NCBI GenBank assembly: GCA_014435945.1
Contig: GCA_014435945.1_4088.1
Source: a phage
Reading direction: 5' to 3' (one strand)
Length of the DNA stretch: 64,000 nucleotides
Under the pieces are notes generated by a model. It saw only the letters and a list, made by a program, of their open reading frames with translations, ran no database searches and had not been told where the DNA came from. Numbering within the stretch: the stretch's first letter is position 1; each line of letters opens with the position of its first letter. A program made the translations under genes and the position numbers. Shown one piece after another: positions 22,546 through 23,431 of this stretch.

Positions 22546-23388
22546 ATGAGCAACATTTTCTTCAAAACCATTTCCTTCAAAAAAGAATCTTACTCTTACG
22601 CTTATGTAGATGGTAAAGTACTCAATATCGTTCTAGATGGTAAAGTACTCAATATCGTTCTAGATGGTGTTGATGTGCCTGTTCAATTTACCAGTCATCA
22701 AGAAGCGATTGAGGGTGCTCAAGAGCTTAACAGCTTACTAAATGGCATTGAGAAGAAACCTGAAGTTAAATCTGACCTTGATTTATTGGTTGACAAAATT
22801 AAAAGTGGTGAACTATTATCAATTCTAGACCAGTGTAATGAAAAATTACGTGGTGTTGTTGGTGATGTACGTACTACAGTTCAAGATCGTCTACTTGAGC
22901 AAGCATTCAAAGAAGTTACTAAGAAAACTGAAGAACGTGTTGAAGGTATGATTAAAAACATTGATGACGTTCTCACTCATATGTTCACCAAGCCATACGA
23001 ATCAAGTACTGATTCTGAAGAGAAACAAGAAGAACCAGTAGAACGCACCAAGCCATCTATTGTTACTAAAGTTAAACATAGTTTTGGTTCACTGGATGAT
23101 GTATTTGGCTTTACAAATGTACGTGTTAGTACTGATGAAAAGCCAGAAGTTGATGAAATGCTAATTGGTGACATGACAACTGGTCAACTCAAAAAAGAGA
23201 TTGATACCTTTGTTAATGAACTAATTAGTTCTGAACGTGCTGAAAATATGTTTAGCAGTATTTCAGCAAACTTCGGTAAAGAAGCAACTGAGCAAGCAGT
23301 ACAGGCATTCAAAGATTTGATTTACACTGTTGCAATTGCTAATCCAGAACAAACACTGGAAGAAGTTCTACGTAAAAACTTCAAATAA
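22546..23388 (+). CDS. hypothetical acidic protein with internal tandem repeat
   Basis: 280 aa; contains DGKVLNIVL twice. Confidence 0.55.
   Translation: MSNIFFKTISFKKESYSYAYVDGKVLNIVLDGKVLNIVLDGVDVPVQFTSHQEAIEGAQELNSLLNGIEKKPEVKSDLDLLVDKIKSGELLSILDQCNEKLRGVVGDVRTTVQDRLLEQAFKEVTKKTEERVEGMIKNIDDVLTHMFTKPYESSTDSEEKQEEPVERTKPSIVTKVKHSFGSLDDVFGFTNVRVSTDEKPEVDEMLIGDMTTGQLKKEIDTFVNELISSERAENMFSSISANFGKEATEQAVQAFKDLIYTVAIANPEQTLEEVLRKNFK
22609..22662 (+). repeat. perfect in-frame 27-bp tandem duplication inside CDS
   Basis: GATGGTAAAGTACTCAATATCGTTCTA occurs twice head-to-tail. Confidence 0.85.
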
Positions 23389-23400
23389 GATATAGATAAA

Positions 23401-23431
23401 AGAAAAGCCACTACAATGTAGTGGCTTTTTT
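23401..23431. terminator. bidirectional terminator hairpin
   Basis: AAAA-GCCACTACA...TAGTGGC-TTTTTT between convergent genes. Confidence 0.65.

What the first reader, a model, noticed from the sequence alone, without database searches (positions are those of the whole stretch)
22609..22662. Perfect 27-bp in-frame tandem duplication inside a CDS
GATGGTAAAGTACTCAATATCGTTCTA is repeated exactly twice, duplicating DGKVLNIVL in the 280-aa protein (22546..23388). Identity at the nucleotide level suggests a recent slippage event or copy-number-variable repeat.
Basis: seen in the sequence. Interest (0 to 1): 0.35.

Follow-up and report, generated by a model that had tools for sequence, protein, structure and literature searches.

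The report
Private 27-bp slippage duplication, phage gene
One isolate of a giant E. coli phage carries an exact 27-base tandem duplication that adds nine amino acids to a virus-particle protein; it looks like an ordinary DNA-copying slip seen in no other sequenced relative, so it is real but not remarkable.

Summary
GATGGTAAAGTACTCAATATCGTTCTA occurs at 22609 and 22636, and the repeat tract is 22607-22668 (2.3 copies, 100% identity). It lies in frame in the 280-aa CDS 22546..23388 and duplicates DGKVLNIVL. The window comes from an Asteriusvirus jumbo coliphage (121Q/PBECO4 genus, Ecwhy_1/Turkey3/TH47 subgroup). The gene encodes a conserved RaK2-like virion-associated protein (PHROG 14991); its orthologues were detected in phAPEC6 and fENko-Kae01 virions by mass spectrometry. 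All 32 phage records spanning the site have one copy, as do the 13 other full-length protein-cluster members (on more than 130 contigs) and 38 family representatives. The duplication junction is absent from three public contig collections. In the single-copy allele the unit is bracketed by an 8-bp direct repeat (TAGATGGT) spaced exactly 27 bp apart. Only 0.06% of window positions have that property, which is the signature of replication slippage. With the extra copy removed, the protein is identical to Turkey3's. The insertion adds one beta-strand-plus-turn unit to a length-invariant N-terminal module, and its effect is unknown. It is a lineage-private slippage mutation, not a hypervariable repeat. 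An assembly artefact cannot be excluded without reads. Interest is low. In passing: a second private perfect tandem duplication (80 bp, tRNA-Thr) lies 4.7 kb upstream.

The parts
22546..23388 (+). CDS of 280 aa (stop included): conserved RaK2-like jumbo-phage virion-associated protein. Predicted layout is an N-terminal beta-meander plus helix, a long helix, a disordered acidic linker and a C-terminal helical bundle.
   Evidence: ORF. PHROG 14991 'virion structural protein', E=2.1e-72, full length. No Pfam family. Orthologues annotated or detected in virions. AlphaFold2 secondary structure.
22609..22635 (+). Copy 1 of the 27-bp unit (encodes DGKVLNIVL, aa 22-30)
   Evidence: Exact match; TRF
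22636..22662 (+). Copy 2 of the 27-bp unit (encodes DGKVLNIVL, aa 31-39). This is the extra copy compared with all relatives; which of the two is 'new' cannot be determined.
   Evidence: Exact match. Appears as a 27-nt gap in TH47, Turkey3 and vB_Ec-M-J and in the Turkey3 indel list.
22607..22614 (+). First copy of the 8-bp microhomology TAGATGGT (encodes the xDG turn) that brackets the unit
   Evidence: Sequence; comparison of the flanks in the single-copy allele
22634..22641 (+). Second TAGATGGT, at the duplication junction
   Evidence: Sequence; the period-27 identity run of 35 nt starts at 22607
22661..22668 (+). Third TAGATGGT, the partial third repeat copy that ends the tract
   Evidence: TRF end coordinate 22668
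22533..22538 (+). Shine-Dalgarno-like AAGGAG, 7 nt upstream of the ATG
   Evidence: Read directly from the sequence; the start codon is conserved in all relatives
23403..23429 (.). 12-bp-stem hairpin with T/A runs on both sides, lying between this gene and the convergent 385-aa virion protein gene; likely a bidirectional terminator
   Evidence: Terminator scan; the equivalent site is annotated as a terminator in phage Munch
22554..22582 (+). Older, degenerate 15-bp near-repeat (IFFKT/ISFKK) at the N-terminus of the same gene. It is conserved in relatives and is not part of the recent event.
   Evidence: TRF, 1.9 copies, 92%; present in 121Q and UB

Best explanation
This is a real, lineage-private, in-frame tandem duplication. 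It arose by replication slippage (slipped-strand mispairing) between two pre-existing 8-bp direct repeats, TAGATGGT, that lie exactly 27 bp apart in the ancestral gene. In this model, the nascent strand ending in the downstream TAGATGGT re-paired with the upstream copy, so the intervening 27 nt were copied twice. The 8-bp repeats exist because the protein already has two 9-residue strand-plus-turn units that each begin with Asp-Gly (DGKVLNIVL / DGVDVPVQF). The product is a 280-aa instead of a 271-aa virion-associated protein, with one extra beta-strand-plus-turn unit in its conserved N-terminal module. The reading frame, start, stop and the rest of the protein are unchanged. The allele is most likely a tolerated, neutral or mildly deleterious polymorphism with no regulatory role. 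What is shown: the repeat itself, the microhomology, the private distribution and family membership. What is inferred: the slippage mechanism, the extra strand (low-confidence model) and the fitness effect.
For: The repeat is exact and in frame. The single-copy allele with flanking TAGATGGT...27 nt...TAGATGGT is present in TH47, Turkey3, vB_Ec-M-J and CMSTMSU; in 121Q and UB the shared flank is a weaker 6-bp GATGGT. Only 4 sites in the de-duplicated 64-kb window, 0.06% of positions, have an >=8-bp direct repeat at spacing 27, and the duplication sits on one of them. All 32 phage records spanning the site cover 101-102 nt against the 129-nt query, meaning one copy. In the 90%-identity protein cluster the 280-aa form is on 1 contig, while the 13 other full-length members are 271 aa and sit on more than 130 contigs. 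The 8 homologue clusters are all single-copy, and 38 family representatives show no insertion at the site. The junction sequence is absent from viral, metagenome and genome contig collections. The gene differs from Turkey3's by 1 synonymous substitution plus the duplication, and the protein minus 9 aa is identical. The duplication is the largest indel and the only clean tandem duplication in 14.9 kb of collinear alignment at 98.5% identity. TH47 has an independent 9-bp tandem duplication in the same gene, so such events recur. AlphaFold2 models the single-copy form as three strands plus a helix (pLDDT 75-79) and the duplicated form as four strands plus a helix (pLDDT 52-64). Orthologues are virion-associated: phAPEC6 gp078c, 4 peptides, 21.4% coverage (PMC7247149), and fENko-Kae01 ENKO_454, 'identified with LC-MS/MS'.
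Against: No sequencing reads are available, so the reality of the duplication in the phage population is not shown. The source record could not be retrieved. A second private perfect tandem duplication (80 bp) 4.7 kb away could point to a technical quirk of this assembly rather than biology. The structure models are low-confidence overall (mean pLDDT about 59.5, pTM 0.27-0.28), so the 'extra strand' is only a suggestion. The N-terminal module is length-invariant across the family, which argues that an insertion there should be costly and sits uneasily with 'tolerated'. The repeat region has no hairpin potential, so nothing beyond the direct repeats favours misalignment.
Confidence: 0.8

Rival explanations
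1. Assembly or sequencing artefact: the extra 27 bp were created by the assembler or polisher (for example an unrecognised overlap at a contig join or a mis-resolved short repeat), and the phage really has one copy.
For: The allele is seen on a single contig only and nowhere else. A second perfect tandem duplication unique to this genome lies 4.7 kb away. No perfect tandem duplication of 14 bp or longer occurs in 272 kb of relatives. Reads are not available.
Against: The duplication coincides exactly with a pre-existing 8-bp direct repeat spaced 27 bp apart, which a random join would hit at only 0.06% of positions. The 80-bp one is likewise bracketed by a 9-bp direct repeat. The surrounding 14.9 kb shows few other indels against Turkey3, all 1-3 bp. 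The gene stays in frame. Short tandem duplications between microhomologies also occur in an independent record (TH47).
Confidence: 0.1
2. Selected functional variant: the extra beta-unit changes how the virion protein assembles or interacts (particle stability, host interaction), and the allele rose because it was advantageous on this isolate's host or during laboratory propagation.
For: The protein is virion-associated in orthologues. The insertion hits the most conserved, length-invariant module, so it is unlikely to be functionally silent. It is the only protein-level change in this gene relative to Turkey3.
Against: There is no recurrence in any other lineage. The protein's function is unknown, with no fold or sequence match to solved structures. 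Nothing links it to receptor binding. One private event cannot be distinguished from drift or hitch-hiking.
Confidence: 0.07
3. Hypervariable repeat (VNTR or contingency-type locus) whose copy number changes frequently within and between populations.
For: Once two perfect 27-bp copies exist, further expansion or contraction by slippage or recombination becomes easier (established knowledge of tandem repeats). A different small tandem duplication exists in the same gene in TH47.
Against: About 170 independent sequences have exactly one copy and none has three or more. A unit length of 27 is a multiple of 3, so there can be no on/off frame switching. The unit is ordinary coding sequence of a conserved domain.
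Confidence: 0.03

Closest known systems
Microhomology-flanked tandem duplications by slipped-strand mispairing (Streisinger-type misalignment, classically described in phage T4 and E. coli; from my own knowledge, not tested against a paper here)
   Same: The copies are perfect and head-to-tail. The ancestral allele has short direct repeats (8 bp) exactly one period apart. The event is private to one lineage and in frame.
   Different: Nothing unusual. There is no hairpin assistance, and the length of 27 bp is within the usual range.
phAPEC6 gp078c / 121Q gp154 / RaK2 ORF233 (YP_007007388) / fENko-Kae01 ENKO_454: the conserved virion-associated protein of RaK2-like jumbo phages (PHROG 14991)
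   Same: Full-length homology: 63% identity to 121Q/phAPEC6 and 32% to RaK2. Same synteny, downstream of a 113-aa gene and, in Asteriusvirus and the Munch/Kae01 group (not RaK2), convergent with a roughly 385-aa virion protein gene. Same N-terminal module and C-terminal helical domain.
   Different: The window protein alone has the 9-aa duplication. All orthologues have a single DGxxLxIxx unit.
Engineered tandem-repeat insertions in T4 lysozyme (Matthews laboratory; recalled from memory, given only as an analogy)
   Same: An exact duplication of a secondary-structure element is inserted next to the original, and a folded protein can accommodate it.
   Different: Those are helix duplications with solved structures. 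Here it is a natural beta-strand duplication with only a low-confidence model.
TH47 9-bp duplication AGAACCAGT x2 (EPV to EPVEPV) in the same gene
   Same: An independent, private, in-frame perfect tandem duplication in the orthologous gene.
   Different: It lies in the disordered acidic linker, where the family's length varies freely, not in the length-invariant beta-module.

Membership tests
Slippage-type (microhomology-flanked) tandem duplication | Head-to-tail copies with no spacer, identical or nearly so | tested here: met
   2.3 copies, 100% matches, 0 indels; exact unit at 22609 and 22636
Slippage-type (microhomology-flanked) tandem duplication | The unduplicated allele carries short direct repeats spaced exactly one period apart | tested here: met
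   TAGATGGT (8 bp) lies at both ends of the 27-bp period in Turkey3, TH47, vB_Ec-M-J and CMSTMSU. Only 4 such sites exist in 64 kb.
Slippage-type (microhomology-flanked) tandem duplication | Derived state: sister lineages have the single copy | tested here: met
   32 of 32 phage records; 13 of 13 other full-length cluster members; 38 of 38 family representatives
Slippage-type (microhomology-flanked) tandem duplication | The duplication is physically present in the DNA (reads or PCR) | not testable with these tools
   No reads available; the source contig could not be retrieved
Hypervariable tandem repeat / contingency locus | Several copy-number alleles among isolates | tested here: not met
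   Only 1 copy (all others) versus 2 copies (this genome); no allele with 3 or more copies; junction absent from three collections
Hypervariable tandem repeat / contingency locus | Copy-number change alters the reading frame or promoter spacing | tested here: not met
   The unit is 27 nt (9 codons), inside the CDS, and the frame is kept
PHROG 14991 / RaK2-like jumbo-phage virion protein | Significant full-length profile match | tested here: met
   E=2.1e-72, residues 2-280 against profile positions 1-236 of 236; tblastn hits in 51 jumbo phage records
PHROG 14991 / RaK2-like jumbo-phage virion protein | Conserved gene neighbourhood | tested here: met
   The same 113-aa upstream gene and convergent ~385-aa virion protein gene occur in Turkey3, vB_Ec-M-J, 121Q, UB, phAPEC6, Turkey5, A4, Munch and Kae01. 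RaK2 and ph0011 instead have a same-strand 585-bp gene downstream.
PHROG 14991 / RaK2-like jumbo-phage virion protein | Presence of the protein in purified virions | not testable with these tools
   Shown only for orthologues: phAPEC6 gp078c by ESI-MS/MS (PMC7247149) and the fENko-Kae01 annotation note. Not known for this phage.
Natural beta-hairpin repeat protein with a variable number of units | Unit number varies among family members | tested here: not met
   The N-terminal module varies by only 1-2 residues in 38 representatives and 10 phage orthologues; none has an extra unit
PH-like / bacterial PH fold (weak lead for the N-terminal module) | Significant structural or profile match | tested here: not met
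   Top Foldseek hits are PH domains but with E>=0.63 and TM<=0.25. No Pfam hit. No PDB sequence hit below E=0.18. The query model itself has low confidence, so absence of a match is weak evidence.

The most novel reading that the evidence does not exclude
This phage lineage, or its propagation history, has an elevated rate of medium-sized perfect tandem duplications between 8-9-bp microhomologies. Two private ones (27 bp in a virion gene, 80 bp adding a third tRNA-Thr) lie within 5 kb, while none of 14 bp or longer is found in 272 kb of relatives. The 27-bp one may be a selected change in a conserved virion module. If so, Asteriusvirus genomes would offer a natural system for watching protein-repeat and tRNA-array growth by slippage in real time.
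Probability: 0.07. Interest if true: 0.4.

Novelty: new member of a known kind. Interest (0 to 1): 0.12.

Why it matters
Mostly it does not. It is one more example of a textbook mutation type, in a protein of unknown role. It has modest value in three ways. It is a clean natural example of how a protein gains a secondary-structure unit because turn codons (Asp-Gly) supply the DNA microhomology. It is a convenient 27-bp length marker for telling this isolate from its close relatives by PCR. It is also a natural insertion mutant that could be used to probe the conserved N-terminal module of an uncharacterised jumbo-phage virion protein.

Tried and rejected
Searches for the two-copy allele elsewhere:
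- The junction pattern was absent from viral contigs, metagenome contigs and genome contigs.
- The 2-kb region had no match in E. coli genomes or plasmids.
- The source contig could not be retrieved by exact protein look-up.

Function of the protein:
- Pfam gave only sub-threshold noise (CheZ, 15.7 bits against a cut-off of 30.7).
- A PDB sequence-profile search found nothing below E=0.18.
- Foldseek against the PDB found nothing below E=0.63. The PH-domain look-alikes among its top hits were rejected as not significant.
- The RaK2 paper's main text does not mention ORF233.

Mechanism:
- I tested whether a hairpin could favour misalignment. The minimum free energy was 0 kcal/mol on both strands, no better than shuffled sequence, so this was rejected.

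Interpretations considered and rejected:
- VNTR or phase-variable locus: no copy-number variation elsewhere, and the unit is a multiple of 3.
- A natural variable beta-repeat family: the module is length-invariant.
- Using the identity of the two copies as a clock: at about 2% divergence, 54 nt would often carry no substitution anyway.

Structure prediction was run for both alleles, but overall confidence is low. Only the local secondary-structure contrast is used, and it is flagged as weak.

Full report
**Observation.** The sequence at 22609-22662 is two exact copies of GATGGTAAAGTACTCAATATCGTTCTA. Tandem Repeats Finder reports 22607-22668, period 27, 2.3 copies, 100% matches and no indels. 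The repeat lies in the ORF 22546..23388 (+, 280 aa) and encodes DGKVLNIVL twice, at residues 22-30 and 31-39. The gene has an AAGGAG motif 7 nt upstream of its ATG. It ends before a 12-bp-stem hairpin at 23403-23429, which it shares with the convergent 385-aa gene. A perfect 27-nt tandem repeat cannot arise by chance in 64 kb. The only other perfect tandem duplication of period >=9 in the window is an 80-bp tRNA unit.

**What genome and what gene.** The region matches jumbo E. coli phages of the genus Asteriusvirus (the 121Q/PBECO4 group). It is 97-98% identical to TH47, Turkey3, vB_Ec-M-J, Ecwhy_1, fEgEco12, WPEC3/5, EC.P1, BF17 and CMSTMSU, and about 75% identical to 121Q, PBECO4 and phAPEC6. 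No record is identical.

- The protein matches PHROG 14991 ('virion structural protein') over its full length at E=2e-72. It has no Pfam family.
- tblastn finds orthologues in 51 jumbo phage records: Asteriusvirus, Klebsiella RaK2/K64-1 (32% identity), Salmonella Munch/7t3 and Klebsiella fENko-Kae01 (about 27%).
- Synteny is conserved in Asteriusvirus and the Munch/Kae01 group: a 113-aa gene lies upstream and a convergent gene of about 385 aa, annotated as a structural or Ig-domain protein, lies downstream. RaK2 and ph0011 differ downstream.
- Virion association is experimental for orthologues. phAPEC6 gp078c was detected by ESI-MS/MS with 4 unique peptides and 21.4% coverage, and its neighbour gp077 with 10 peptides (PMC7247149).
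- No role within the particle is known. A PDB sequence-profile search found nothing below E=0.18 and Foldseek found nothing below E=0.63.

**Distribution of the duplication.**

- All 32 phage records that span the site align over 101-102 nt to a 129-nt query containing both copies, so each has one copy.
- Direct inspection confirms a single copy in TH47, Turkey3, vB_Ec-M-J, CMSTMSU, 121Q and UB.
- In the 90%-identity protein cluster, the window's 280-aa sequence occurs on one contig (358,057 bp, NCBI). The 13 other full-length members are all 271 aa and occur on more than 130 contigs, including E. coli assemblies and Logan/ENA metagenomes.
- Eight homologue clusters and 38 family representatives from a search of 1.84 billion proteins have no extra residues at this position.
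- The junction sequence, which exists only in alleles with two or more copies, is absent from the viral, metagenome and genome contig collections.

The duplication is therefore private to this genome, and the locus is not copy-number variable in any broader sense.

**Mechanism.** In the single-copy allele the sequence reads ...ATG TAGATGGT AAAGTACTCAATATCGTTC TAGATGGT GTTGAT.... An 8-bp direct repeat thus brackets exactly one 27-bp period. In the de-duplicated window only four sites have an >=8-bp direct repeat at spacing 27. That is 38 positions, or 0.06% of the window. A duplication placed at random, for example by an assembly join, would almost never coincide with such a site. A slipped-strand misalignment between the two TAGATGGT copies produces exactly the observed sequence.

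The region has no hairpin potential on either strand, so the direct repeats alone account for the event. The microhomology is not accidental. It encodes the x-Asp-Gly turn that begins each of two consecutive 9-residue strand-plus-turn units of the protein (DGKVLNIVL, DGVDVPVQF), so protein periodicity supplied the DNA substrate.

Within the gene the window differs from Turkey3 by a single synonymous substitution plus the duplication. The protein with one copy removed is identical to Turkey3's. Across 14.9 kb of collinear alignment at 98.5% identity, the duplication is the largest indel and the only clean tandem duplication. TH47 carries its own 9-bp tandem duplication (AGAACCAGT x2, EPV to EPVEPV) in the acidic linker of the same gene. 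Such slips therefore recur.

**Consequence for the protein.** Family alignments show a conserved N-terminal module of about 60 residues with the pattern F-x-x-V-x-F ... V-(D/E)-G-x-x-L-x-I ... V-x-F-x-S-x-x-E-A ... E-L. Its length varies by at most 1-2 residues across all representatives. By contrast, the linker regions vary freely.

AlphaFold2 was run with shallow alignments. Overall confidence is low (mean pLDDT about 59.5, pTM 0.27-0.28).

- The single-copy form is modelled as strands 18-22, 25-30 and 33-38 followed by helix 42-56, with local pLDDT 75-79.
- The duplicated form is modelled as four strands (17-21, 24-31, 34-39, 42-47) followed by helix 51-65, with local pLDDT 52-64.

The insertion is thus plausibly accommodated as one extra strand in the meander. 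An odd number of added strands must reorient whatever follows, and the drop in confidence is compatible with a perturbed module. This is inference from weak models. Because the module is length-invariant in the family and the allele is a singleton, the likeliest status is a tolerated neutral or mildly deleterious polymorphism. A selected change cannot be excluded.

**Rivals.**

- An assembly artefact remains possible because no reads are available and the allele is seen on a single contig. The exact coincidence with the pre-existing microhomology argues against it, and so does the otherwise clean local alignment.
- A hypervariable repeat or contingency locus is contradicted by the census and by the in-frame unit length.
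- An adaptive variant has no evidence beyond the location in a conserved virion protein.

**In passing.**

- The window contains a second perfect tandem duplication that is also unique to this genome. tRNA-Thr(TGT) copies 2 and 3 (17885-17958 and 17965-18038, 80-bp units) are identical and bracketed by a 9-bp direct repeat, CGGCACAAA. The closest relatives have two tRNA-Thr genes, and the 121Q/PBECO4 group and WPEC3 have one.
- In 272 kb of relatives, perfect tandem duplications of period >=9 exist but are all 9-13 bp long. Two medium-sized ones in 64 kb is mildly unusual (crude P about 0.04) and is unexplained. It could reflect lineage propensity, propagation history or a technical quirk.

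**Verdict.** It is an ordinary, private, microhomology-mediated in-frame duplication in a conserved jumbo-phage virion-associated protein of unknown role. It is a new instance of a well-known kind of mutation and deserves low interest.

Noticed in passing
window 17805-18038 (units at 17879-17958 and 17959-18038): There are three tandem tRNA-Thr(TGT) genes. Copies 2 and 3 are a perfect 80-bp tandem duplication bracketed by a 9-bp direct repeat, CGGCACAAA. The closest relatives (Ecwhy_1, CMSTMSU, BF17, Turkey3, fEgEco12) have two copies, and WPEC3 and the 121Q/PBECO4 group have one. The third copy is therefore also private to this genome.
   Followed up: partly
window 1-64000 compared with L014-L019 (Turkey3, TH47, ECO103 4-12-1; 272 kb): Perfect tandem duplications of 14 bp or longer number 2 in the 64-kb window and 0 in 272 kb of relatives, which only have 9-13-bp ones. 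This is a mild excess and is unexplained; it could be lineage propensity, passage history or an assembly quirk.
   Followed up: partly
L001 about 1530-1550 (TH47, MT446416.1 near 154573); aligns to window about 23031: TH47 has its own private in-frame 9-bp tandem duplication, AGAACCAGT x2 (EPV to EPVEPV), in the acidic linker of the orthologous gene.
   Followed up: yes
window 14733-15219: Three tandem paralogous 54-aa ORFs, all starting MTHEEWM, have overlapping ATGA stop/start junctions. TRF sees them as a 161-bp repeat at 80% identity. They lie just downstream of an HNH-endonuclease-like ORF (14170-14694) and a tRNA-Arg gene. Turkey3 has the same three ORFs.
   Followed up: no
window 16439-16530: ARAGORN calls a tRNA-Ser with anticodon ACT (A at position 34), which is unusual. 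Relatives annotate a tRNA-Ser at the same place.
   Followed up: no
window 17805-17878 compared with L014 4315-4387: The first tRNA-Thr differs from Turkey3's by changes on both sides of the anticodon stem (CTGAC...ATCAG in the window, TCCCC...GGGAA in Turkey3), while the rest of the tRNA is identical.
   Followed up: no
protein cluster of window 22546-23385 (P0003): The single-copy 271-aa protein is recorded on 115 contigs, including entries named 'hypothetical protein [Escherichia coli]'. Asteriusvirus DNA is therefore common in E. coli isolate assemblies (contamination or carrier state). However, no complete RefSeq E. coli genome or PLSDB plasmid holds this region.
   Followed up: partly
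L004 about 1046-1090 (CMSTMSU, MH494197.1): The CMSTMSU record has one A fewer in the A-run near the start of this gene (6 against 7 in the window). This breaks the ORF into fragments in its annotation and is probably a homopolymer sequencing error in an 'UNVERIFIED_ORG' record.
   Followed up: no
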